Source of the DNA: an uncultured virus (IMG/VR IMGVR_UViG_3300011741_000001)
Lineage: Duplodnaviria > Heunggongvirae > Uroviricota > Caudoviricetes
Direction: 5' to 3' (one strand)
Length of the DNA stretch: 53,534 nucleotides
Virus record (IMG/VR): IMGVR_UViG_3300011741_000001
Span: 186,001-239,534 of that record
Part shown: positions 1,005-50,752 of the stretch, in pieces
Position numbering within the stretch: position 1 is the first letter of the stretch
Layout of the letters: each line of letters begins with the position of its first letter
Made by a program: the position numbers and the translations under genes
The notes under the pieces: generated by a model
What the model saw: only the letters and a program-made list of their open reading frames with translations
The model's database searches: none
Told to the model about the DNA's origin: nothing

Positions 1005-3788
1005 ATGGATGATATCAAAAAGCTGGCGTCACGCGACCCAGCCGTTGCCGCATTGTTGCGCAAGGCAACCGGGCCCAGTGCCGGTCAGGAGCGTGGTAAG
1101 CGAGAAGAGGGTGGTACAACCCCAACGCGTACTGAATTAACCAGCTTAGCCAGTGCACGTATCCGAACTATCCGTAACTCGGAGAAAATCTTTCAGGCAC
1201 TGCCTGAGTTAGAGACGATTATCACCATTGCGGTATCGACCTTACTCTCTACAAAAGATTTGATCAACACGTCAATTGTCTACGACTCCAAAGCGGATAT
1301 TCCGTTGGATTTGCTGGCTGACCTGATTGAAAACGTGCGTGATTTCAATGACCACGAACGTGGCTTGCCGGGCAAGCTCTATAACTGGATGTACGATGCT
1401 TACCGTTCCAAAGGTGCCACCCCGGTACTGTTCATCTCTGATGCGGGCTTCGATGAGTTGTTTAAACTCGAAGGCGTAAAACCGGATGAAGCACTCGGTG
1501 TAGGCGGGCTGGATGCGAAGGTCGCGCAGGAGTCTACCCGCCGTACCCAACGCTTTGCCAACTACTTTGAAGCTCAGCAGGGCCATCTCGGCTTTATCGA
1601 CAAAAGCGATAAACCGCTGGTCGGTCTGGAAAGCATCCTGCGTCGCAAAACCAGTAAGCCGGCGGGTCCGCAGAAACTCAATCTGGATCTGAGTGAACTG
1701 TTCGAATCCGGTAAAGGTGATACCTTAACACTCACGGTGACCGACAACGCCCGCATTTATCTGGCCGGTGAAGCCTTCCGTCGTGTGGCACACGAAAACG
1801 CCCGTAGCAGCCTATACGGACAGTTGGAACAGACTGCATATGAACAGGTGCATGGTGGTCTGGCTGAGCGTTTTGACGGGGATAAATTCCAGGACGCCAA
1901 CGACAAGAAACAGAAGTGGATGAACATCTCGGATCTCAATGAGACCTACCGCACCACGCCAGAACAAATGGCGTACGCAGAGATTCCTTCACTGTCCATC
2001 ACAGATGAAAACCACCTTGAGTTTACCGAGCGTGTGTTACCGGCAGAATCAACCCTGCCTGTGATTATCGCGGGGATGACACAAGACCCGATTGGGTATC
2101 TGGGGATTATCGATGAGATGGGGAACTTCATTAACACGAACTCCTCGCTCTACGGTGATGCGAACTTCATGAATTACCTGAATAATGACGGGGCGTCGGA
2201 TTCTGTTGTGAACCGTGCTAACCTCGGCATGGGTAATGGTCAGAAGGTCACACCTGAAATCTCCAATCGTCTTACTGCACGCTTTGGCGAGTTAGCCGAA
2301 GGTCAGTTAGCCGATGCGCTGTCACAGGCGTTGGGCGGTGCTGAGCTCGATATCGGCATCACCGAGATGTTCTCTCGCGTGGTACTGACCCGTCACTTGG
2401 CGAAACGTTACACGCAGGTGGTGTACATCCCAGCTGCGAACCTGTGCTACTTTGCCACGGATTTCGATGACAACGGTATCGGTGTGTCGATTACCGAGCG
2501 TTCGTTTGTTATCTCGACCATCCGTATGGCGCTGCTGTTTGCCCAGATGAATGCCGCGGTACTGAACTCCTCACGTCACATGCAGTACGACATTCAGTTG
2601 TCACCGGATGCGATGAACGGGAAAGAAGCAGTTGACCGTATCAAGTCCGATATCCTGAACTCCTACAACCGTCGTATGCCGATGTGGGGGAACATGGAAG
2701 ATGCGTGGGCGATGGGGGCAAATGCCGGTATCTCGTTCAACGTGGAAGGGAACGAATACTACCAGTCGCACAAAGTGAGTGTGTCGGATAACACGCCAGA
2801 CTATAAAGAGCCGGACATGGACTTCGACAAAGAGTTACTGCGTCGTACCTGTCAGATTGCAAACGTTGACCCGGATTTAGTATTGACGCCGGACGCCATT
2901 GAGTTCGCTTCGCAGATTTACTCGAAGTCCTTACTGGTGACCCAGCAGATTTACAAGAAGCAGGAAATCCTGAAGAAGCCGATGACCAAGTACGTGGTAA
3001 ACGGTTGCTTAGCGTCACCGCGTCTGCAGTCGCGTATGATTGAAACCATTGCGAACTTCCTGAAAGCCACTGGCGGTGAGAAAAACGCCGTGGAGCTCAC
3101 GAAAGAAATCAATGAGATTCTGCGTAAGTTCATCAACGGTCTGGCTGTGAGCCTGCCACCACCGGATACTTCTGCTGCCAGCTCGCAGATGGACCTGTTC
3201 GACAAACGTGTAGAGTTCTTCGACAAACTCGCCGACATGGTTGTCACTGAGGATTTGACCAACAGCCTGAACAACGCTGGCATTAAGATGGACGCCAACG
3301 ACATGAAGACCATGGTCAAAACCTACTACGTCCGTCAGTGGCTGCGTAAGCAGGGGATTGAGAACGACTTCTTCGATCTGGTGTACGACAAAGACACCCG
3401 CGAAGATACCATTCAGGCCATCTCGAACGAAGTCAAAGACGCGACTGAGTTCCTCATGGGTCTGGCGAACCGTGCGGCCGGTAAGATTGATACCGTGGCC
3501 AAACAGAAAGGCGACCCGAACGGGGGTGGCTTTGACGGCGGTGGAGGCGGAGACGGGGACTTCGGTAGTGACGATGATGGGTTAGGCGGTGACAACGAGT
3601 TCGGAGATGACGATCTGGGCGGTGATGAAGGCGACACAGGAGGTGGCGATGGAGACGGTCTCGGAGGAGACGGTGACGACGGTTTAGGTGGGGACGGAGA
3701 CAGCAACGACGGTGACGGTGCAGCATTAGCCGACGGCGACGACAATGCTGGGGACGCCAACCCGGACGACGACGAAAACCAAGTCTAA
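1005..3788 (+). CDS. Portal protein (phiKZ gp129 / SPN3US gp81-like), 927 aa
   Basis: Size, synteny near capsid and RNAP genes, GGAG SD, VAQES protease site, acidic Gly/Asp C-terminal tail. Confidence 0.75.
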   Translation: MDDIKKLASRDPAVAALLRKATGPSAGQERGKREEGGTTPTRTELTSLASARIRTIRNSEKIFQALPELETIITIAVSTLLSTKDLINTSIVYDSKADIPLDLLADLIENVRDFNDHERGLPGKLYNWMYDAYRSKGATPVLFISDAGFDELFKLEGVKPDEALGVGGLDAKVAQESTRRTQRFANYFEAQQGHLGFIDKSDKPLVGLESILRRKTSKPAGPQKLNLDLSELFESGKGDTLTLTVTDNARIYLAGEAFRRVAHENARSSLYGQLEQTAYEQVHGGLAERFDGDKFQDANDKKQKWMNISDLNETYRTTPEQMAYAEIPSLSITDENHLEFTERVLPAESTLPVIIAGMTQDPIGYLGIIDEMGNFINTNSSLYGDANFMNYLNNDGASDSVVNRANLGMGNGQKVTPEISNRLTARFGELAEGQLADALSQALGGAELDIGITEMFSRVVLTRHLAKRYTQVVYIPAANLCYFATDFDDNGIGVSITERSFVISTIRMALLFAQMNAAVLNSSRHMQYDIQLSPDAMNGKEAVDRIKSDILNSYNRRMPMWGNMEDAWAMGANAGISFNVEGNEYYQSHKVSVSDNTPDYKEPDMDFDKELLRRTCQIANVDPDLVLTPDAIEFASQIYSKSLLVTQQIYKKQEILKKPMTKYVVNGCLASPRLQSRMIETIANFLKATGGEKNAVELTKEINEILRKFINGLAVSLPPPDTSAASSQMDLFDKRVEFFDKLADMVVTEDLTNSLNNAGIKMDANDMKTMVKTYYVRQWLRKQGIENDFFDLVYDKDTREDTIQAISNEVKDATEFLMGLANRAAGKIDTVAKQKGDPNGGGFDGGGGGDGDFGSDDDGLGGDNEFGDDDLGGDEGDTGGGDGDGLGGDGDDGLGGDGDSNDGDGAALADGDDNAGDANPDDDENQV

Positions 3789-3790
3789 CC

Positions 3791-3853
3791 AAAAAAAAAT
3801 AAGTAGTGGCGAAGTACCTACCTCCTGATGGAGGTAGGTTACTTTTATTTTTC
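3791..3853. terminator. Bidirectional intrinsic terminator
   Basis: Stem acctacctcc-tgat-ggaggtaggt (3816-3839) with an A-tract before and a T-tract after, between convergent genes. Confidence 0.8.
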
Positions 3854-4042
3854 GGGGTCGAGCAGCCAATCGATGGTATCAGCATCACGACGACGCACTT
3901 TAGATGCGCCAATATGCCGCGTCTGCAGCTCTCGTGTACGTGATACATCATTGACAAACCACGAATGTTCTTTTTCAAACTTGCGTTTCAGGAACCGCTC
4001 GAGACCTTTCTGTTTCTTACCACGGTACTGAGCCTTTTTCAT
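3845..4042 (-). CDS. Small basic hypothetical protein, 65 aa
   Basis: Last ORF of a tightly packed minus-strand cluster; GGA SD; K/R-rich. Confidence 0.6.
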   Translation of the reverse strand: MKKAQYRGKKQKGLERFLKRKFEKEHSWFVNDVSRTRELQTRHIGASKVRRRDADTIDWLLDPEK

Positions 4043-4274
4043 TCAACTGTCCTATTTTCTTAATACGGATAGGCATATCCACTTCGTCATCGAAAAAGAT
4101 AACGCTACTGGTTTCAACATAGCGAACAACTGAAGGGTCAACCACAATTGGACCGCGGTGTTTTCCGCGGTTAATATACGGACTTGTCAGATATCGCTTA
4201 CTGACCCGCAGACCTTTCTTGCGTTGGAGCTTCAGATACGCGTGGTGTTTACCACGCCATTGTGGACGTTTCAT
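4017..4274 (-). CDS. Small basic hypothetical protein, 85 aa
   Basis: ATG directly follows the upstream TAA; AGGA SD; K/R-rich N-terminus. Confidence 0.6.
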   Translation of the reverse strand: MKRPQWRGKHHAYLKLQRKKGLRVSKRYLTSPYINRGKHRGPIVVDPSVVRYVETSSVIFFDDEVDMPIRIKKIGQLNEKGSVPW

Positions 4275-4379
4275 TTAACTTCCTACCGTGATATAAAGCA
4301 TGGTGCTTGCCCAACCCACAATCAAGATTACCGCAGCAATATAACCGCCACCGAGAAAGAGTTTATCGATTTCGTTCAT
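4275..4379 (-). CDS. Membrane microprotein, 34 aa (MNEIDKLFLGGGYIAAVILIVGWASTMLYITVGS)
   Basis: ATG 4379 preceded by GGGGA; one hydrophobic segment; tiles between neighbours. Confidence 0.5.
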   Translation of the reverse strand: MNEIDKLFLGGGYIAAVILIVGWASTMLYITVGS

Positions 4380-4506
4380 GATCGTCCCCGTGCACGAGTT
4401 TATCCATCCGTTTGAACCAACCGACTTCCTGCCAAATCCACAACATCCCTGCCAACGCAACCAACACACAAAACAGTATCAAGAAAAACTTAGTGACCGG
4501 GTCCAT
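4363..4506 (-). CDS. Membrane microprotein, 47 aa (MDPVTKFFLILFCVLVALAGMLWIWQEVGWFKRMDKLVHGDDHERNR)
   Basis: Manually translated, below the ORF-track cutoff; AAGGA upstream; clear TM helix; fills the gap between genes. Confidence 0.6.
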   Translation of the reverse strand: MDPVTKFFLILFCVLVALAGMLWIWQEVGWFKRMDKLVHGDDHERNR

Positions 4507-4702
4507 TCTGCCTATCCTTCTGCCATTGCAGACAATTCATCATAGCGTCAGCTACCGCCATTTCGATTAAGTGTTTTTCACGTGCACGTCGACTGGTACG
4601 TCCGATTTTGATATCACTGTAGATTGTGAAAATCAGTCCAGCGAACAATGCTAACGTAAACAATACTGAGAGTAAGATGAAGGTATAATCGGCTTCGCTC
4701 AC
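4490..4702 (-). CDS. Single-pass membrane protein, 70 aa
   Basis: AAGGAG SD, GTG start overlapping the upstream TGA, N-terminal TM helix. Confidence 0.65.
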   Translation of the reverse strand: MSEADYTFILLSVLFTLALFAGLIFTIYSDIKIGRTSRRAREKHLIEMAVADAMMNCLQWQKDRQNGPGH

Positions 4703-4815
4703 TGGTACTCCTTGATAGCCTCATCAAAGAGCTTGACGGCACGGTGAGTTTGTTGTTGACGTTTCTTACGCAGCTGTACACGACGTAATGTTGCACCTTT
4801 AGAATTCGTTTTCAT
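4699..4815 (-). CDS. Basic microprotein, 38 aa (MKTNSKGATLRRVQLRKKRQQQTHRAVKLFDEAIKEYQ)
   Basis: Manually translated; AAGGAG SD; stop overlaps the next start (GTGA). Confidence 0.6.
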   Translation of the reverse strand: MKTNSKGATLRRVQLRKKRQQQTHRAVKLFDEAIKEYQ

Positions 4816-4818
4816 TTC

Positions 4819-5148
4819 TTATTTCTCCTTACGTTTAAACCATTGATGTTCTTGCCAGCACCACGCCATTCCGGTTAAATTACCTAGTTTGCGGAGCTGA
4901 CGGGCTTCATCGGAATCGTACAAATCTTCGTGGATTTCCCATTCATCAATTGCATCCCACGAACGCTTGTGGAGGCCCACCACACACTGTTGGCGCAGTG
5001 ACCGTGAAAAAGCACGCCCCTTTCTACGGTAAAAGCGGGCAACGAACTCATCGAAGAAAAAGTAACAACACAATTCCCACGTTATCCACAGTCCCCAGAA
5101 AGCAAACAGCGCCAGACAGGCATCGCCTATCTGATACACCACTGTCAT
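4819..5148 (-). CDS. Hypothetical membrane protein, 109 aa
   Basis: ATGA overlap with the upstream gene; hydrophobic N-terminal segment. Confidence 0.6.
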   Translation of the reverse strand: MTVVYQIGDACLALFAFWGLWITWELCCYFFFDEFVARFYRRKGRAFSRSLRQQCVVGLHKRSWDAIDEWEIHEDLYDSDEARQLRKLGNLTGMAWCWQEHQWFKRKEK

Positions 5149-5588
5149 GGCATGTGTCTCGCTATGTGGTGTTGGTTACGGTAGAACTTGGCCAGCTTCT
5201 TCTGCTGGGCTTTACGTTGACGTTCAGCTTTGTGACTGCGATCCGGCTGAGGGTTAAAGGTATTCGGCATGTGCCCAATACTGTCAATCACGGTCACGCG
5301 GCCAGATGCCTGATGCTCGCGGAGCTGCTTTGCGTATTCCTGCGGGTCAGGTGGCGTCCACTCCCCTGATTCACTGAGGTGGCGGATCGCTTTCTCGTCA
5401 CGTTCACGGTAACCTTCGGTGTCAACACCCATGTCTTCAGTGAAGCGTGGGGCAGGGATTTGACCACCGTCTTCAAACTTCCCTTCGTTAAAACGTGCTA
5501 CCGGTGATTCGACAGCGACCGGCGGGTTTTCATGCATTCTTTCCAGATGCGCATTCACCTTCTGGAGTTTACGATCGAACTTGGTCAT
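5145..5588 (-). CDS. Hypothetical protein, 147 aa
   Basis: GGGAG SD; first gene after the terminator at 5616-5635. Confidence 0.7.
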   Translation of the reverse strand: MTKFDRKLQKVNAHLERMHENPPVAVESPVARFNEGKFEDGGQIPAPRFTEDMGVDTEGYRERDEKAIRHLSESGEWTPPDPQEYAKQLREHQASGRVTVIDSIGHMPNTFNPQPDRSHKAERQRKAQQKKLAKFYRNQHHIARHMP

Positions 5589-47154: not shown

Positions 47155-47185
47155 AAAAAAGAAAAAGGGAGGCCGAAGCCTCCCT
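47155..47185 (-). terminator. UUCG terminator
   Basis: agggaggc-ttcg-gcctccct then a U-tract. Confidence 0.85.
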
Positions 47186-47189
47186 CAGG

Positions 47190-47669
47190 TTACTGACTCT
47201 CGCGCAAATGCTTTTCCATCTGTTCCGCTTCGTTCTTGCCTTTGTTCATGGCGCTTTGCACCGCGGTACGTAACCGCTGGAGTGTGCTTAGCATCATGCC
47301 TATCTCCCACCGGGGGCGATCCAAAAACTCATCGAAGTTCAGATGGAAACGTTCACCGACTTGTTCGCGAATGTACGTATCGAGCCACAACTGATAGAGA
47401 GAGCCGTGTAACGGGTCATCGAAGTCCGAGACGCCGACGTGGTCATTGCCCACAAAGTGTTCAATAGCCTCATCGTACGCCTCGATCAATTCGTCATGCG
47501 CTTCCTGATACGTAATGGGTTTGCCCGACCGGTTTTTGAACAGGGAGGACAAATCCAGTTTCAGTGTCGCGATCAGCGTCTCGGTGTTGACGCTGGCATG
47601 ATCTAACCAATACTTTCGTATTGAAGTTGAATGACTTTCTGTATTTCGGACACCGCACGAGAGAGCGCG
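47190..47669 (-). CDS. Downstream -1 frame ORF, probable frameshift extension of 47603-49609 (159 codons after the slip site)
   Basis: Frame open from about 47720 to 47190; first possible start is a TTG at 47552 with a weak SD; contains F.EFL..PRWE..MM. Confidence 0.6.
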   Translation of the reverse strand, partial: RALSCGVRNTESHSTSIRKYWLDHASVNTETLIATLKLDLSSLFKNRSGKPITYQEAHDELIEAYDEAIEHFVGNDHVGVSDFDDPLHGSLYQLWLDTYIREQVGERFHLNFDEFLDRPRWEIGMMLSTLQRLRTAVQSAMNKGKNEAEQMEKHLRESQ

Positions 47670-49609
47670 AAAAAAAGTCTGTCCGGGGAGATGGTCACAA
47701 TCCCGCGGAACGGGCCATCTTTAATCCCCTCCTGCGCTTTCGCACAGTGTGGACATTTACGACCCATGTAACCGAACACCGCCACGCGGGTCGCTTCGGT
47801 ATACGCAGAAATCGCTTCTTCGAACTTCGCCACGTACACACGATCCGAAGACAGGTCGGTCAGCAGCTTTTTAATCTCTGCCGGCTTGGTCTCCGTGGTG
47901 ACTTTTGCGTTGTCTTCGCCAGCTTCGTGAATCGAGATGGACTTCACGGTGTGCAGGTAACGAGTCAGGCGACGAGATTCGGCACCCACACGCATGTGCT
48001 GCTCACGGTCTTTCTCGGTGGCGTAGTCGGTCAGTGCGGCTGCAGTGGTGTCTGCAATCTCACTCGCCCACTCTTCGGTCACGTCGAAATAATCACCCAG
48101 CGTTGAACGGCCAAAGGTCACAACGATGCCGTCTTCTTCAAAGCGTTCTGCCGCAACTGCCGGGTGCGCCTGTCGGAAGGCCAACTGGTCAGCTTGAGAC
48201 AGGATGTTCTCTTCGCTTTCCGTCTGACGTTCAAACATCGCCCGCTGCTCTTCGGTGAACTGGCTGTTGCCCAGACGTGTGGCACGAATCAGGTTCAACT
48301 TCACGTCTTCCGAATGGTCGCACTCCGGGTTCATACAGGTCAGTGTCCACGGTACCCCAGATGGGTACTTGGCGGTCAACATCCCGATAATCACCACCCA
48401 GTAGTCGTCTTTGTCAATTTTATCAATCAACACCGACTTCATGTCCCCGCCCATCAAATCGAGGGAGGTTGAGGTCACGAACTTCAGGGCAAACTCCACC
48501 ATGTGGCGCAGGTACACACCGGACGAAGCGGACATCAGCAACCCGTAGGTGCTCATGCCAATCTTCGCGGTTTCCATGGCGAACTGGATATCGAAGTCAC
48601 AGAAGTCACGTTCGTGTGGCGCGGCAAACTGCAGATAGAAGCCCGATGCCGGCAGCCACTGGTTAACCGGGTTACCGGTCTTACGGTGACGACGCAGCGC
48701 AGACAGAGCATCCGTACCGGAGTTGTCTTGACGCACCCAGCCTGCATTACGGCCAGACTTAGTGGTCAAGTGTTGCTCCCATGCCACCCCTTCACGACGC
48801 AGTGCGCCTTGGAAGGCGGCTACACCGTTAGGCGATGAAGGACTGGTCAGACTCAACGCCGAGTAGATACGCCAGTAGGTCAGCTCTTCGTGCTCGTTAC
48901 GGAACAGGGGCTGACCGTTGTCGTTCTGCGGGATACTGCGGAAGAAGCGGTTAACCTGACGCGCCGTTTCTTCAGACGACTGCATCGGCCCGGTTAGCGT
49001 GTTCCCGGCACCCAGCAGAATACGATCCGGGTCGTTCTGATCCAGTGGACTGATTTCGCTGCGGGGCGCTGCGGCTCCCAGATTCACTTCAACCCGCTTC
49101 TCTGCTTCAGGCTGCGCCGGCGGCGGAGTAGGTGCAGGTTGTGGTTCCGGTGCTGGTTGCGCCGGTGCCTGTTCGTCAGACGGCAAAAAAGAAGGGGCCG
49201 CGGCAGGTGCTGGCTCTACCCGTTGCTCAGACAACTCTTCCGCATGATGATGGTGAGTTGTCTGGCCGCGGATTGGCGTATCCGAAATATGCTCATGGCG
49301 CGGTTGCACCGGCTGTTCATTCGCGTGGTTGTGCGCATCCAGCTCCTGATGGTGATGCGGAGACGGGGTGTCGTCGTGCTTCACCACGTGTTCAGGGCTA
49401 CCGGCACTGGTCGGTTGAGTGCGGTTAAACGATTCGTCTGCGGTTTCTTTTACCGCAGGTTCCGGTTGAGACTGACGGCGGCGGTCGTATTCGTGACTGG
49501 CCTGACCCATCCCCCACGACGGGTTCTCTTCGAGAATCTTCATGATCTCGTCACGGCGGGCGTTGTCTGTGTTCTGACGACCACCGGCTGGGCGTGCATC
49601 ATTCGACAT
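47603..49609 (-). CDS. Conserved protein (phiKZ gp77-like), candidate tail/baseplate assembly chaperone, 668 aa
   Basis: Disordered H/P/E-rich N-terminus; D.....I.M....YP.G......C....C and CPHC motifs ending near LFF, a layout resembling T4 gp26/gp51-type proteins. Confidence 0.6.
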   Translation of the reverse strand: MSNDARPAGGRQNTDNARRDEIMKILEENPSWGMGQASHEYDRRRQSQPEPAVKETADESFNRTQPTSAGSPEHVVKHDDTPSPHHHQELDAHNHANEQPVQPRHEHISDTPIRGQTTHHHHAEELSEQRVEPAPAAAPSFLPSDEQAPAQPAPEPQPAPTPPPAQPEAEKRVEVNLGAAAPRSEISPLDQNDPDRILLGAGNTLTGPMQSSEETARQVNRFFRSIPQNDNGQPLFRNEHEELTYWRIYSALSLTSPSSPNGVAAFQGALRREGVAWEQHLTTKSGRNAGWVRQDNSGTDALSALRRHRKTGNPVNQWLPASGFYLQFAAPHERDFCDFDIQFAMETAKIGMSTYGLLMSASSGVYLRHMVEFALKFVTSTSLDLMGGDMKSVLIDKIDKDDYWVVIIGMLTAKYPSGVPWTLTCMNPECDHSEDVKLNLIRATRLGNSQFTEEQRAMFERQTESEENILSQADQLAFRQAHPAVAAERFEEDGIVVTFGRSTLGDYFDVTEEWASEIADTTAAALTDYATEKDREQHMRVGAESRRLTRYLHTVKSISIHEAGEDNAKVTTETKPAEIKKLLTDLSSDRVYVAKFEEAISAYTEATRVAVFGYMGRKCPHCAKAQEGIKDGPFRGIVTISPDRLFFALSRAVSEIQKVIQLQYESIG
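47669..47675 (-). other. Slippery heptamer T-TTT-TTC, candidate -1 ribosomal frameshift site
   Basis: Codons CTT TTT TTC (Leu-Phe-Phe) in X XXY YYZ phase; the -1 frame joins the downstream ORF with no stop. Confidence 0.6.
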
Positions 49610-50300
49610 GTTCGTTATCCTTTACAGCTTCGTTAACAATCAGCTTAGCCGCTTCACGGGCCACCGCCGGTGGCAGTTCCAGCTTTTCGCCATTGCCAGC
49701 GTACGACACGGCAGCCTGCGCTTGTTCTGCAGCCTGCGCCGCAATCGCGTCTTGTTCGGCTTTCTCGTTTTCAGCCGCGATATGCTTTTCGAGATTGGCT
49801 TTGGCCATCTCCAGCGAGCTACCGGCTTCCAGATCACGTTTCACGAATTCCACGTTACGGAAATACGTTTCCATGATTTCCAGCGCCAGACCGGTGTACT
49901 TCTGACCGGCGATGGTCGCTTCAGTGGAGAGCTCTGCCATGCGCAGCTCAACCGGCAACACAAAGTCTTTCACCGCATCCCACTTCTCGTTTTCGAGACG
50001 GGTCAGCAGTGGACTGCCCACGCTATCCGCTTCAACGATGATTTTGTTGAGTTCGGTTTTGATGTGGTCAGCCAGACCCAGATACCCGGCTTTAGCCAGC
50101 GCAATCTGGTGGTCGTTATACACTTTCAGATCCCCGGTACGGGTGTCTTCGTTTTGCAGTTCATCCAGCGCATGGGCGAGTTTGCCCGACTCAATAATGA
50201 ACATATCCTGCACGTAGAAGATTTCACCCAGCAGGCGGCGGAGTTCATCACGGGCCACTTTACGTGGATTATACGCGGGTTTCTTTTTGCGTTGGGACAT
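49599..50300 (-). CDS. Hypothetical protein, 233 aa
   Basis: ATG 50300 (MSQRKKK) behind AAGGA; helical, coiled-coil-like. Confidence 0.72.
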   Translation of the reverse strand: MSQRKKKPAYNPRKVARDELRRLLGEIFYVQDMFIIESGKLAHALDELQNEDTRTGDLKVYNDHQIALAKAGYLGLADHIKTELNKIIVEADSVGSPLLTRLENEKWDAVKDFVLPVELRMAELSTEATIAGQKYTGLALEIMETYFRNVEFVKRDLEAGSSLEMAKANLEKHIAAENEKAEQDAIAAQAAEQAQAAVSYAGNGEKLELPPAVAREAAKLIVNEAVKDNEHVE

Positions 50301-50359
50301 GGAGATATTCCTTACGGGGTTACGGTGGGTTATATACACAGCATATAGCCCGAATGTGA

Positions 50360-50752
50360 TTAAGTGTTGTGTGGTACCGTCACCCAGTCGTGCCATTTTT
50401 CGGAGAACAGGCGATAGGCGACTTTCGGGTTCTGGCCTACATTCCCGGCAGGGTTGTCATTCCACAGTACCCAGCTGTACAGTTCGTACGAAGCGGTGCT
50501 GCGGATGGAACTCTCACGAGTCAGGTAATAGGTTTTGCCTCGCTGCATCACCTGCATCCCTGCAAAGTGTTCAGTGACCATGTAGTAGTGGAGCGCTGGC
50601 TTAAGCACCGTGTCTTTACACAGAGCAGCCAGCACCACACTAACGTCTTCGTCTACGCCGGGATACGCTCTTAGCACCTTTTCGAGGAAGCTTGCGAGGG
50701 TTAGTCCCGCGTACGGCGGTTGAGGCAAATTGGGAGTTGGAGGTGTTAGCAT
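50360..50752 (-). CDS. Hypothetical protein, 130 aa
   Basis: AAGGAG SD; overlaps the helicase 3' end by 113 nt. Confidence 0.6.
   Translation of the reverse strand: MLTPPTPNLPQPPYAGLTLASFLEKVLRAYPGVDEDVSVVLAALCKDTVLKPALHYYMVTEHFAGMQVMQRGKTYYLTRESSIRSTASYELYSWVLWNDNPAGNVGQNPKVAYRLFSEKWHDWVTVPHNT

What the first reader, a model, noticed from the sequence alone, without database searches (positions are those of the whole stretch)
47190..49609. Candidate -1 frameshift making a G/GT-type tail assembly chaperone pair in a phiKZ-like jumbo phage
Seen: 21 codons before its stop, the 668-aa gene reads AGA CTT TTT TTC, a T-TTT-TTC heptamer in X XXY YYZ phase (47675-47669). A -1 slip reads FFRALSCGVRNTESHSTSIRKYWLDHASVNTETLIATLKLDLSSLFKNRSGK with no stop into the 47190-47552 ORF, giving 647+159 = 806 aa. 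That frame opens only about 45 nt before the slip site, and its first possible start is a weak TTG. Established: long-tailed phages make tail chaperones G and GT by such a frameshift (lambda paradigm). Inference: the Cys-pair motifs ending in FF, and the F.EFL..PRWE motif downstream, resemble T4 gp26/gp51-type chaperones. The pair sits among RNAP and helicase genes rather than between tail tube and tape measure genes, which could explain it being overlooked. I do not recall this being described for phiKZ-like phages.
Basis: partly seen in the sequence, partly recalled or inferred. Interest (0 to 1): 0.85.

Follow-up and report, generated by a model that had tools for sequence, protein, structure and literature searches.

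The report
Conserved -1 frameshift in jumbo-phage hub-assembly gene
A run of seven T's near the end of a conserved giant-phage gene, a distant relative of the phage T4 baseplate-hub assembly helpers, very probably lets some ribosomes slip back one base and make a second, 806-residue form of the protein that current genome annotations miss.

Summary
A T_TTT_TTC heptamer lies in phase 21 codons before the stop of the 668-aa gene, and the -1 frame is open from there to 47190 (647+159 = 806 aa).

Comparative evidence makes programmed recoding the best reading.
- In 20 lineages sampled, from SPN3US-like phages and phiKZ (gp77/gp76) to Goslar and a Bacillus phage, all have a T-run at this spot.
- 16 of 20 have an in-phase T_TTT_TTN heptamer, and 19 of 20 have the downstream ORF in the -1 frame.
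- No natural in-frame fusion was found.
- 7 of 17 close relatives have no start codon ahead of the conserved block.
- Codon-position variability switches to the -1 frame directly after the 0-frame stop.

The protein is not a lambda G/GT homologue. It is a distant, enlarged relative of the T4 hub-assembly chaperones gp26/gp51 (PF12322), so the G/GT likeness is in mechanism only.

Ribosomal and transcriptional slippage cannot be separated here, and no conserved RNA stimulator was found. No paper on this turned up in my searches.

The parts
47603..49609 (-). Gene 1, 0 frame, 668 aa (P0001). It is the orthologue of SPN3US_0039, phiKZ gp77, 201phi2-1 gp136, PhiPA3 gp074 and Goslar_00081. Stop TAG at 47605-47603.
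   Evidence: phrog_8054 E 8e-235 and phrog_4585 E 6e-71. Orthologue names come from record notes.
49043..49609 (-). N-terminal ~190 residues: Pro/His/Gln-rich, poorly conserved, left out of the fold.
   Evidence: Sequence. The alignment consensus is mostly x in this part.
47651..48700 (-). Residues 304-653: the part that aligns structurally with a cluster in which 99% of members carry PF12322 (T4_baseplate, the family of T4 gp26 and gp51).
   Evidence: ESM Atlas structure row 5: TM 0.62 by target, 247 residues aligned. BFVD rows named 'baseplate hub subunit/assembly protein', E 1e-4 to 1e-1. These are leads from predicted models only.
47744..48337 (-). Span holding the four invariant cysteines: C425, C430 (48337-48320) and C619, C622 (47755-47744). 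Presumed zinc site.
   Evidence: Invariant in 25 of 25 aligned homologues. Metal binding is inferred.
47669..47675 (-). Slippery heptamer T_TTT_TTC in X_XXY_YYZ phase, inside the T7 run 47676-47670. Proposed site of the -1 shift after F647.
   Evidence: Exactly T7 followed by C in 17 of 17 distinct SPN3US-like junctions. T-run present in 20 of 20 lineages and an in-phase T_TTT_TTN in 16 of 20.
47603..47668 (-). Overlap zone read in both frames. The 0 frame gives the last 21 residues of the short form (ALSRAVSEIQKVIQLQYESIG), and the -1 frame gives the linker of the long form.
   Evidence: In the first 30 nt after the heptamer, mean pairwise amino-acid identity is 0.80 (0 frame) and 0.78 (-1 frame) against 0.60 (+1 frame). 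Nucleotide identity is 0.87, against 0.78 upstream. Synonymous variability is damped.
47190..47669 (-). -1-frame extension: 159 codons (47669-47193) plus TAA. It is equivalent to SPN3US_0040 and phiKZ gp76, but begins about 40 codons upstream of any annotated start.
   Evidence: phrog_7580 E 3e-39. tblastn matches begin at the residue before the 0-frame stop. 18 of 18 lineages translate from the slip site to the stop without a stop codon. The model has a disordered first 25 residues, then helices, with a long terminal helix at 122-160.
47165..47186 (-). Intrinsic-terminator-like hairpin (9 pairs) with a T tail directly after the extension's stop. None lies between the two reading frames.
   Evidence: Consensus match only.

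Best explanation
The 668-aa gene and the 'gene' behind it form one recoded gene.

**Mechanism.** Most ribosomes read AGA CTT TTT TTC in the 0 frame and stop 21 codons later, giving the 668-aa short form. A fraction slip back one base while tRNA-Phe occupies TTT (P site) and TTC (A site). They continue with CGC GCT... in the -1 frame and make an 806-aa long form, in which the last helix of the short form is replaced by a flexible linker and a ~120-residue helical domain.

**Identity.** The protein is a distant, much enlarged relative of the T4 hub-assembly chaperones gp26 and gp51 (PF12322). The two isoforms most likely act in assembly of the baseplate hub and tail-tube initiation complex, and are not major parts of the virion.

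**Shown (sequence and comparison):** the site, its phase, the open frame, its conservation, the lack of a start codon, and -1-frame coding signatures.

**Inferred:** that slippage happens on the ribosome, its efficiency, and the assembly role.
For: 1. Anatomy is exact.

2. Conservation across a virus family. In 20 lineages (the window phage plus 19 records reaching phiKZ/KTN4, PhiPA3, 201phi2-1, Goslar, RSF1, EL-like, PCH45, Vibrio and Bacillus phages), 20 of 20 carry a T-run of 5-8 at the FF/FL codons near the 3' end. Lengths are T8 x3, T7 x12, T6 x3 and T5 x2. 16 of 20 have T_TTT_TTN in phase, 19 of 20 have the second ORF in the -1 frame, and in 20 of 20 that frame is already open at the run.

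3. The constraint is on nucleotides. Kc263 and AgentSmith encode F-L (TTT TTA) but keep the run, whereas T4 gp26 has FF as TTC TTT and no extension.

4. No in-frame fusions were found.
- 40 of the 41 hits other than the query cover the core (88% of the query or more) and are 534-705 aa. The other two cover 4-6%. None is near 800 aa, although lengths of 367-1169 aa were searched.
- 73 of the 82 hits of the extension profile are 59-146 aa, as stand-alone gene calls. Of the nine longer ones I read five. Three of 163-186 aa are extended or scrambled gene calls, one of 312 aa is a frame-shifted, error-ridden fragment, and one is the 165-aa scrambled entry. The other four (381-3846 aa) match as repeated short stretches and I did not read them.

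5. No usable start. In 17 distinct SPN3US-like junctions the first ATG/GTG/TTG in the -1 frame wanders between +43 and +190. In 7 of 17 there is none before +187, which is after the conserved KLDTTSLFK..PITYQEAHDE block, and one has none up to +200. An SD-like motif appears once.

6. Coding signatures.
- Column entropy peaks at 0-frame position 3 upstream of the run (0.92 against 0.25 and 0.28).
- It peaks at -1-frame position 3 in the 45 nt directly after the 0-frame stop (1.49 against 0.95 and 0.52) and further on.
- Just after the heptamer both frames are conserved (0.80 and 0.78 against 0.60).
- One substitution class there is A/V/E in the 0 frame but CGC/CGT/CGA (Arg) in the -1 frame.

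7. In phiKZ-likes, a conserved -1-frame motif (SRL...D..GH....FG) lies 147-273 nt upstream of the annotated ATGs.

8. It is not an assembly slip. A relative's contig has no indel at the run.

9. Family evidence.
- The fold model has pLDDT 84.
- BFVD gives jumbo-phage orthologues at TM 0.7-0.8, then 'baseplate hub' proteins.
- The ESM Atlas gives a PF12322 cluster at TM 0.62 over residues 304-653.
- The T4 gp26 C-terminal motif matches.
- T4 gp26 and gp51 are listed as hub assembly chaperones in Table 2 of PMC3004832 (passages read).
Against: - There is no experimental evidence of any kind: no peptide, no transcript and no reporter. No RNA run holding this sequence was listed.
- No conserved stimulatory RNA structure follows the site. 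RNAalifold gives about 0 kcal/mol for +8..+60, and single-sequence z-scores are mostly insignificant in 16 lineages (Goslar -2.9 and Yong XC31 -2.4 are the exceptions). A TCTCG-N9-CGAGA hairpin 6 nt after the heptamer exists in many SPN3US-like phages but is weakened in the window and lost in Wellington.
- Runs of T7-T8 could also cause polymerase slippage, which gives the same protein.
- Four of 20 lineages lack a canonical in-phase heptamer: PhiPA3 has G_TTT_TTT, Noxifer has G_TTT_TTC, pVa-21 has A_CTT_TTT, and the RTH11 run is out of register as deposited. pVa-21 also has an ATG with a GAGG motif, so the second ORF can probably be made on its own there.
- SPN3US and the Machina-like phages do have an ATG at +118 and +112.
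- The 17 close sequences are not independent lineages. Dual conservation just after the run could partly reflect an RNA-level constraint.
- The link to T4 gp26/gp51 is weak by sequence. The Pfam HMM does not match at E<=1 in 25 of 25 members, and hhalign probability is 19% over 18 columns.
Confidence: 0.7

Rival explanations
1. Transcriptional slippage is the main route. The phage or host RNA polymerase stutters on the A7 template run and adds one U, and ordinary translation of the U8 transcripts then gives the same 806-aa protein.
For: The runs are homopolymers of 7-8 in 15 of 20 lineages. No conserved ribosomal stimulator was found. The RTH11 deposit is one T short of register, which would fit a length-unstable run. 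An insertion of one U gives exactly the predicted product (direct from the sequence).
Against: - Run length is not what is conserved (5 to 8), while two 0-frame codons TTT-TTN preceded by T are present in 16 of 20 lineages.
- T5 and T6 runs (5 of 20) are short for efficient stuttering. This rests on established knowledge of bacterial RNA polymerases and is recalled.
- The relative's DNA contig shows a fixed T7.
- Both routes may operate together.
Confidence: 0.15
2. These are two ordinary genes. The downstream ORF is translated on its own from a weak or non-canonical start, or by re-initiation after the TAG, and the T-run merely encodes a conserved Phe-Phe.
For: - All 20 GenBank records that I used for the junction survey annotate two genes.
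- Gene callers give 99-124 aa proteins.
- pVa-21 has ATG plus GAGG, and some lineages have an ATG near the conserved block.
- FF is also present in T4 gp26 without any run.
Against: - 7 of 17 close relatives have no ATG/GTG/TTG before the conserved block, and one has none within 200 nt.
- Annotated starts are scattered from -58 to +219 nt relative to the gene 1 end, with ATG, GTG and TTG all used.
- -1-frame codon periodicity and conserved residues lie upstream of those starts.
- Phe-Phe could be written TTC TTC or TTC TTT, yet the run is kept, even where the residues are F-L.
- The frame is always -1 and always opens shortly before the run.
Confidence: 0.08
3. The split is an artefact or decay: a homopolymer sequencing error or a pseudogenised fusion, with the true gene being one 806-aa ORF.
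For: - Homopolymers are error-prone.
- SEGD1 is annotated as one 795-aa ORF.
- The RTH11 deposit has a run that is out of register.
Against: - The same split occurs in 19 of 20 lineages sequenced by many groups, in 40 of 40 homologue clusters, and in an independent relative's contig.
- The 0-frame tail after the run is conserved as protein (0.80 identity) and ends at exactly the same distance (71 nt) in 17 of 17 sequences.
- The single ORF in SEGD1 comes from an odd 21-versus-20-nt divergent stretch before the run, not from the run itself.
Confidence: 0.01
4. One reading: the pair is a true G/GT-family tail assembly chaperone that coats the tape-measure protein and recruits tube subunits.
For: - It has the same recoding layout as G/GT.
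- One BFVD row for the extension is named 'tail assembly chaperone', at E 0.35 and probability 0.63.
- The HK97 chaperone 2ob9 appears at Z 3.1.

Both of these structural hits are at noise level.
Against: - At 668 aa it is far larger than the ~100-150 aa typical of G proteins (the typical size is recalled).
- The fold is an alpha/beta core with a Cys4 site.
- There is no TAC family hit in Pfam for 25 of 25 members.
- Its neighbours are a helicase, an RNA polymerase subunit and unknowns.
- The best structural kin are T4_baseplate-type proteins.
Confidence: 0.03

Closest known systems
Lambda G/GT (and P2 E/E+E') tail-assembly-chaperone frameshift. Paradigm recalled, not fetched here.
   Same: A -1 shift at an in-phase slippery heptamer a few codons before the stop of a phage morphogenesis gene. 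It gives a short major form and a C-terminally extended minor form from a start-less overlapping ORF. The layout is conserved while the sequences diverge. P2 uses a T-rich heptamer (recalled; also named in scan note e1-2012187).
   Different: Not homologous. The protein is 668 aa with an alpha/beta Cys4 core rather than a small helical chaperone. It does not sit between tube and tape-measure genes, has no TAC Pfam hit, and its partner proteins are unknown.
T4 gp26 and gp51, hub assembly chaperones (Pfam PF12322 T4_baseplate)
   Same: - Two Cys pairs, and the C-terminal CPxCG...RG[IL]..FF motif at the very end of T4 gp26.
- Predicted-structure matches to PF12322-type proteins.
- One GenBank record already labels an orthologue 'T4 gp26 like'.
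- T4 has a short (208 aa) and a longer (249 aa) paralogue, and both match PF12322.
   Different: - About three times larger, with a disordered N-terminal ~190 residues.
- The Pfam HMM does not match.
- hhalign gives only 19% probability over 18 columns.
- T4 writes FF as TTC TTT and has no extension ORF; gene 25 follows by a TAATG overlap.
- The extension shows no likeness to the gp51 tail.
phiKZ gp77 / gp76 gene pair (phrog_8054/4585 and phrog_7580/12109), a conserved pair of Chimalliviridae
   Same: Direct orthologues with the same T-run, the same -1 overlap, and the same three-gene order with the upstream gp78-like gene.
   Different: The SPN3US-like branch uses T7 followed by C, with a 21-codon 0-frame tail. 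phiKZ-likes use T7/T8 followed by A, with 8-16-codon tails. Extensions share only 10-24% identity with the window's.
E. coli dnaX tau/gamma -1 frameshift (A_AAA_AAG). Recalled.
   Same: A bacterial -1 shift on a homopolymeric heptamer that yields two isoforms of one protein at a set ratio.
   Different: dnaX has an upstream SD-like element and a downstream hairpin, and the shift shortens the protein. Here no conserved stimulator was found, and the shift lengthens the protein.

Membership tests
Canonical programmed -1 ribosomal frameshift site | Slippery heptamer X_XXY_YYZ in the 0-frame phase | tested here: met
   T_TTT_TTC at 47675-47669 in phase. In-phase T_TTT_TTN in 16 of 20 lineages.
Canonical programmed -1 ribosomal frameshift site | Overlapping -1 ORF with no start of its own, open from just before the site | tested here: met
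   The frame opens 44 nt before the run. The first start codon is TTG at +124, and 7 of 17 relatives have none before +187.
Canonical programmed -1 ribosomal frameshift site | Site and overlap conserved among diverged relatives, with coding signal in the new frame | tested here: met
Canonical programmed -1 ribosomal frameshift site | Stimulatory element (downstream hairpin or pseudoknot, or upstream SD-like) | tested here: inconclusive
   No consensus structure. A weak, non-universal hairpin starts 6 nt downstream. Rfam finds only the terminator hairpin. Not all known sites need a stimulator.
Canonical programmed -1 ribosomal frameshift site | Trans-frame protein detected | not testable with these tools
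   No RNA or proteome data for this phage. Supplements of the Goslar preprint are closed.
Lambda G/GT-type tail assembly chaperones | Small chaperone with the TAC fold or family signature | tested here: not met
   668 aa. No TAC family hit in Pfam at E<=1 for 25 of 25 members. The model is an alpha/beta core with a Cys4 site.
Lambda G/GT-type tail assembly chaperones | Gene placed between the tail tube and tape-measure genes | tested here: not met
   The neighbours are a helicase, an RNA polymerase beta subunit and proteins of unknown function.
Lambda G/GT-type tail assembly chaperones | -1 frameshift near the 3' end giving a C-terminally extended second product | tested here: met
   Met at the sequence level only.
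T4 gp26/gp51 hub assembly chaperones (PF12322) | Match to the Pfam T4_baseplate model | tested here: not met
   No hit at E<=1 in 25 of 25 members. T4 gp26 and gp51 score 8.8e-64 and 3.9e-52.
T4 gp26/gp51 hub assembly chaperones (PF12322) | Shared fold | tested here: inconclusive
   - ESM Atlas: PF12322 cluster at TM 0.62 by target, 247 residues aligned.
- BFVD: 'baseplate hub' rows at E 1e-4 to 1e-1, TM by target about 0.5.
- Both sides are predicted models, and no solved structure matched.
T4 gp26/gp51 hub assembly chaperones (PF12322) | Two Cys pairs and the C-terminal CPxC...RG[IL]..FF motif | tested here: met
   C425, C430, C619, C622, G636, F646 and F647 are invariant. The T4 gp26 sequence is. 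hhalign aligns the CPxCG..RG stretch.
T4 gp26/gp51 hub assembly chaperones (PF12322) | Needed for hub assembly, not a major virion part | not testable with these tools
   The only hint is that gp81 and gp82 have no mention in the main text of the Goslar virion preprint, assuming the paper numbers genes by locus tag.
phiKZ gp77 family (phrog_8054/4585) | Full-length profile match and conserved synteny with the gp78-like and gp76-like genes | tested here: met

The most novel reading that the evidence does not exclude
The frameshift is the single-gene counterpart of the T4 pair of paralogous hub chaperones. The short form would do the job of gp26 and the long form that of gp51 (a PF12322 core plus an extra C-terminal tail). 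In that case nucleus-forming jumbo phages set the ratio of two hub-assembly factors by recoding, where T4 uses gene duplication. This would also make gp26/gp51-type proteins the contractile-tail, hub-centred analogue of G/GT, and would give the first handle on what gp51 'catalysis' is.
Probability: 0.2. Interest if true: 0.75.

Novelty: new variant of a known kind. Interest (0 to 1): 0.64.

Why it matters
- If real, every genome of this virus family, including phiKZ, SPN3US, Goslar, 201phi2-1 and PhiPA3, mis-annotates a conserved gene pair. A conserved protein of about 680-810 residues is then missing from proteome lists, structure predictions and interaction screens.
- It extends the rule that a frameshift makes two forms of an assembly chaperone, known from lambda-type tails, to a different protein family acting at the baseplate hub of giant contractile-tail phages.
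- It offers a simple genetic handle (short-only and long-only mutants) on hub assembly, which is still poorly understood even in T4.
- The site is also a clean natural test case for ribosomal against polymerase slippage on U7-U8.

Tried and rejected
**Searches that found nothing informative**
- Pfam on the two parts and on 25 homologues.
- A PDB sequence profile search: only low-complexity noise.
- Foldseek against PDB.
- VIA-align against 48,161 chains: best Z 4.4 for the core. For the extension only single-helix coiled-coil matches, with Z no higher than 5.8.
- hhalign of the extension profile against T4 gp51 and gp26: probability 0.1% or less. My idea that the extension matches the gp51 tail therefore has no support from this test.
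- hhalign of the core against gp51: probability 1.5%.
- Rfam: only terminator-hairpin fragments.
- RNAalifold and z-scores: no conserved stimulator.

**Data that were not available**
- No RNA holder was listed for this sequence. The only run was a DNA run holding an ~88% relative, used solely to check the run length.
- The search for related loci reached only the SPN3US-like branch (8 and 16 loci), so distant lineages were taken one by one from GenBank records.

**Corrections and things set aside**
- In one search I mislabelled the frames: what is printed as '0' there is the -1 frame. The later scripts use the right phase.
- SEGD1's single ORF and database entry P0052 were examined as possible natural fusions and rejected as sequence errors.

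**Literature**
- Nine searches turned up no paper on this frameshift. The searches were: SPN3US+frameshift; phiKZ+programmed ribosomal frameshift; phiKZ+gp77; jumbo phage+tail assembly chaperone+frameshift; 201phi2-1+gp136; Chimalliviridae+frameshift; phiKZ+ribosomal frameshifting; SPN3US+gp39/gp40; gp26+gp51+baseplate hub.
- The 'gp77' and 'gp136' hits concern other genes of other phages.


Full report
**1. The observation**

On the minus strand, a 668-aa ORF runs from 49609 to 47603. Twenty-one codons before its TAG the sequence reads AGA CTT TTT TTC. That is seven T's (47676-47670) followed by C, so T_TTT_TTC sits in X_XXY_YYZ phase at 47675-47669.

The -1 frame reads FFRALSCGVRNTESHSTSIRKYWLDHASVNTETLIATLKLDLSSLFK... 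without a stop down to TAA at 47192-47190. That gives 647 + 159 = 806 residues. The frame opens 44 nt before the run, and its first ATG/GTG/TTG after the run is TTG at 47552. A terminator-like hairpin follows the second stop, and none lies between the two frames.

**2. Not an assembly error and not a private oddity**

PHROGs already holds the two parts as separate families. The first part matches phrog_8054 (and phrog_4585) to the very end of the profile, and the second matches phrog_7580 (and phrog_12109).
- blastn and tblastn found the pair in 61 and 67 phage records of the SPN3US/Erwinia group. The tblastn matches to the second part start at the residue that precedes the 0-frame stop and run across two annotated genes.
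- The junctions of SPN3US, Wellington and a Machina-like phage show the same GGAC...TTTTTTTC and the same stop position.
- In 17 distinct SPN3US-like junctions the run is exactly T7 followed by C, and the stop lies exactly 71 nt after the first T.
- A contig of an ~88% identical relative from a public run shows no indel at the run.
- SEGD1, annotated as one 795-aa ORF, owes this to an aberrant 21-versus-20-nt stretch just upstream of the run, not to the run itself.

**3. Depth of conservation**

tblastn with the folded core found 225 phage records, phiKZ-like phages among them. I took 19 records from different genera and analysed them together with the window, 20 lineages in all (analysis).
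- All 20 have a T-run of 5-8 at the Phe-Phe (or Phe-Leu) codons close to the 3' end: T8 x3, T7 x12, T6 x3, T5 x2.
- 16 of 20 have T_TTT_TTN in phase. phiKZ/KTN4 reads ACT TTT TTT ACT, Goslar reads CTT TTT TTT ACC, and the Bacillus phage AgentSmith reads GTT TTT TTA.
- The four exceptions:
  - PhiPA3 has G_TTT_TTT.
  - Noxifer has G_TTT_TTC.
  - Vibrio phage pVa-21 has A_CTT_TTT, and also an ATG behind a GAGG motif.
  - In Xanthomonas phage RTH11, the deposited T7 puts the body of the gene out of register with both tails, and one more T would restore the usual layout.
- The second ORF is in the -1 frame in 19 of 20, and that frame is already open at the run in 20 of 20.
- In 18 of 18 lineages tried, the -1 frame translates from the run to its stop without interruption, and the products align from FF[YR]P to a shared C-terminal [ML]S.DE[FY][LI]..P...LE motif.
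- Where the residues are F-L rather than F-F the run is still kept. T4 gp26 has F-F written TTC TTT and no extension. The constraint is therefore on nucleotides.

**4. Evidence against two ordinary genes**

- No natural in-frame fusion turned up.
  - 40 of the 41 hits other than the query cover the core and are 534-705 aa, in a search open to 367-1169 aa. The other two cover only 4-6% of the query.
  - An exhaustive profile search with the extension gave 82 hits. Of these, 73 are 59-146 aa.
  - Of the nine longer ones I read five. Three of 163-186 aa are extended or scrambled gene calls, the 312-aa one is a frame-shifted, error-ridden fragment, and the 165-aa one is a scrambled entry.
  - The remaining four (381-3846 aa) match as repeated short stretches, and I did not read them.
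- Annotators and gene callers pick ATG, GTG or TTG starts from -58 to +219 nt relative to the first gene's end. For the window itself the caller chose a start that gives 99 aa and cuts into the conserved part.
- In the 17 close junctions the first possible start in the -1 frame wanders from +43 to +190. Seven have none before +187, which is after the conserved KLDTTSLFK..PITYQEAHDE block, and one has none within 200 nt. An SD-like motif occurs once.
- In phiKZ-likes, a conserved -1-frame motif (SRL...D..GH....FG) lies 147-273 nt upstream of the annotated ATGs.

**5. Coding signatures**

Column entropy by codon position changes along the junction:

| Region | 0-frame pos 1 | 0-frame pos 2 (= -1-frame pos 3) | 0-frame pos 3 |
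|---|---|---|---|
| Upstream of the run | 0.25 | 0.28 | 0.92 |
| First 30 nt after the heptamer | 0.00 | 0.41 | 0.43 |
| 45 nt after the 0-frame stop | 0.52 | 1.49 | 0.95 |
| Next 66 nt | 0.24 | 1.25 | 0.41 |

Upstream of the run the pattern is 0-frame coding. Directly after the heptamer all variation is damped. After the 0-frame stop the peak moves to -1-frame position 3.

Mean pairwise amino-acid identity tells the same story:

| Region | 0 frame | -1 frame | +1 frame |
|---|---|---|---|
| Upstream | 0.84 | 0.56 | 0.56 |
| First 30 nt after the heptamer | 0.80 | 0.78 | 0.60 |
| After the 0-frame stop | 0.31 | 0.46 | 0.25 |
| Conserved block | 0.42 | 0.80 | 0.39 |

One substitution class right after the run is A/V/E in the 0 frame but synonymous Arg (CGC/CGT/CGA) in the -1 frame. 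The 17 sequences are related, so these figures describe the clade and are not independent events.

**6. Mechanism**

The common denominator across lineages is two 0-frame codons TTT-TTN preceded by T, not a given run length. This favours tandem tRNA-Phe slippage on the ribosome. However, I found no conserved stimulator.
- RNAalifold energy is about zero for the first 50 nt.
- z-scores in 16 lineages are mostly unremarkable.
- A TCTCG-N9-CGAGA hairpin 6 nt downstream exists in many SPN3US-like phages but not in all.

T7-T8 runs could also make RNA polymerase stutter, which would give the same protein. I therefore rank ribosomal frameshifting first and keep transcriptional slippage as a live rival or co-contributor.

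**7. What the protein is**

Sequence searches against Pfam and PDB are silent. A model of residues 190-668 is confident (pLDDT 84, pTM 0.85).
- It has no solved counterpart.
- In BFVD it matches jumbo-phage orthologues at TM 0.7-0.8, and then a long series of 225-290-aa proteins named baseplate hub subunit or assembly protein.
- The ESM Atlas structure search aligns residues 304-653 with a cluster in which 99% of members carry PF12322 (TM 0.62 by target).
- T4 gp26 and gp51, fetched from the T4 record, both match PF12322.
- T4 gp26 ends ...KCPECGKTHAHVIRGLKEFFELL, which is the same CPxC...RG[IL]..FF layout as the window protein's KCPHCAK...FRGIVTISPDRLFF. The four cysteines, G636 and F646-F647 are invariant in the jumbo family.
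- The 2010 review of T4 tail morphogenesis lists gp26 and gp51 as hub assembly chaperones and says gp51 is absent from the particle (PMC3004832, passages read).
- The main text of the Goslar virion preprint builds a T4-like hub and never mentions gp81 or gp82, the pair's locus-tag numbers (10.64898/2026.04.21.720040, passages read).

In the model, the slip site lies inside the last helix (model residues 453-476, which is P0001 642-665). The long form therefore loses that helix and gains a linker that is predicted disordered, followed by a helical domain with a 39-residue terminal helix. That domain matches only its jumbo-phage counterparts.

**8. Comparison with the known**

The layout works like lambda G/GT. 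Family membership fails on size, fold, family signature and gene position. The nearest protein family is T4 gp26/gp51, which is supported by motif and predicted fold but not by the Pfam model. I tested whether the extension resembles the C-terminal tail that distinguishes gp51 from gp26. It does not in hhalign, so the attractive idea that the two isoforms stand in for the two T4 paralogues remains a hypothesis.

**9. Novelty and verdict**

Nine literature searches found nothing on this recoding event. All 20 GenBank records that I used for the junction survey annotate two genes. An earlier, unchecked note of this scan (e1-2012187) reports the same T-run frameshift in the phiKZ gp077 family from another genome. 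My survey, made independently on this window, agrees with it.

I rate this as a real, conserved recoding site with probability about 0.85, and as ribosomal -1 frameshifting with probability about 0.7. It is a new variant of a known kind.

Noticed in passing
L002 (SEGD1, KU726251) about 3160-3181, against L001 (SPN3US) 3160-3180: SEGD1 differs from SPN3US by a scrambled-looking 21-versus-20-nt stretch just upstream of the T-run. This puts the whole gene into one 795-aa ORF and looks like a local sequence error in that record.
   Followed up: partly
L036 (Xanthomonas phage RTH11) 2214-2220: The deposited T7 run leaves the gene body out of register with both the usual short tail (FFTLLGQ...*) and the extension (FFYPSRP...). 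One more T would restore the family layout. This is either a homopolymer miscall or a run of unstable length.
   Followed up: partly
L045 (T4) 3803-4429 and 4480-5229: T4 gp26 and gp51 both match Pfam PF12322 over about 200 residues, so they are paralogues. gp51 carries about 48 extra C-terminal residues. Gene 25 starts in the -1 frame of gene 26 through a TAATG overlap.
   Followed up: partly
window 49599-50396 (-): The upstream 265-aa gene (phrog_8045, unknown function) overlaps the start of the 668-aa gene by 11 nt. The three-gene order (gp78-like, gp77-like, gp76-like) is kept from SPN3US to phiKZ, Goslar and a Bacillus phage, which suggests one functional module.
   Followed up: partly
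window 49043-49609 (-): The first ~190 residues of the 668-aa protein are rich in Pro, His, Gln and Glu and hardly conserved among homologues. phiKZ-like orthologues (507-581 aa) are shorter.
   Followed up: no
proteins P0052 and P0054: Two database entries look like artefacts. One is a 312-aa fragment that reads the zinc-ribbon region in the wrong frame. The other is a 165-aa protein made of pieces of the SPN3US extension in reversed order.
   Followed up: no
window, 10 places: T7-or-longer runs are about three times commoner than in shuffles (25 overlapping matches against 8.8 expected). Nine of the ten places are on the minus strand, and the one after 47190 is part of a terminator. I did not classify the others.
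   Followed up: no
L004 (Vibrio phage pVa-21) 3385-3510: In this lineage the run is broken (GTA CTT TTT ACG), and the second ORF has an ATG six bases behind GAGGAA. This is a possible case of a frameshift replaced by independent initiation.
   Followed up: partly
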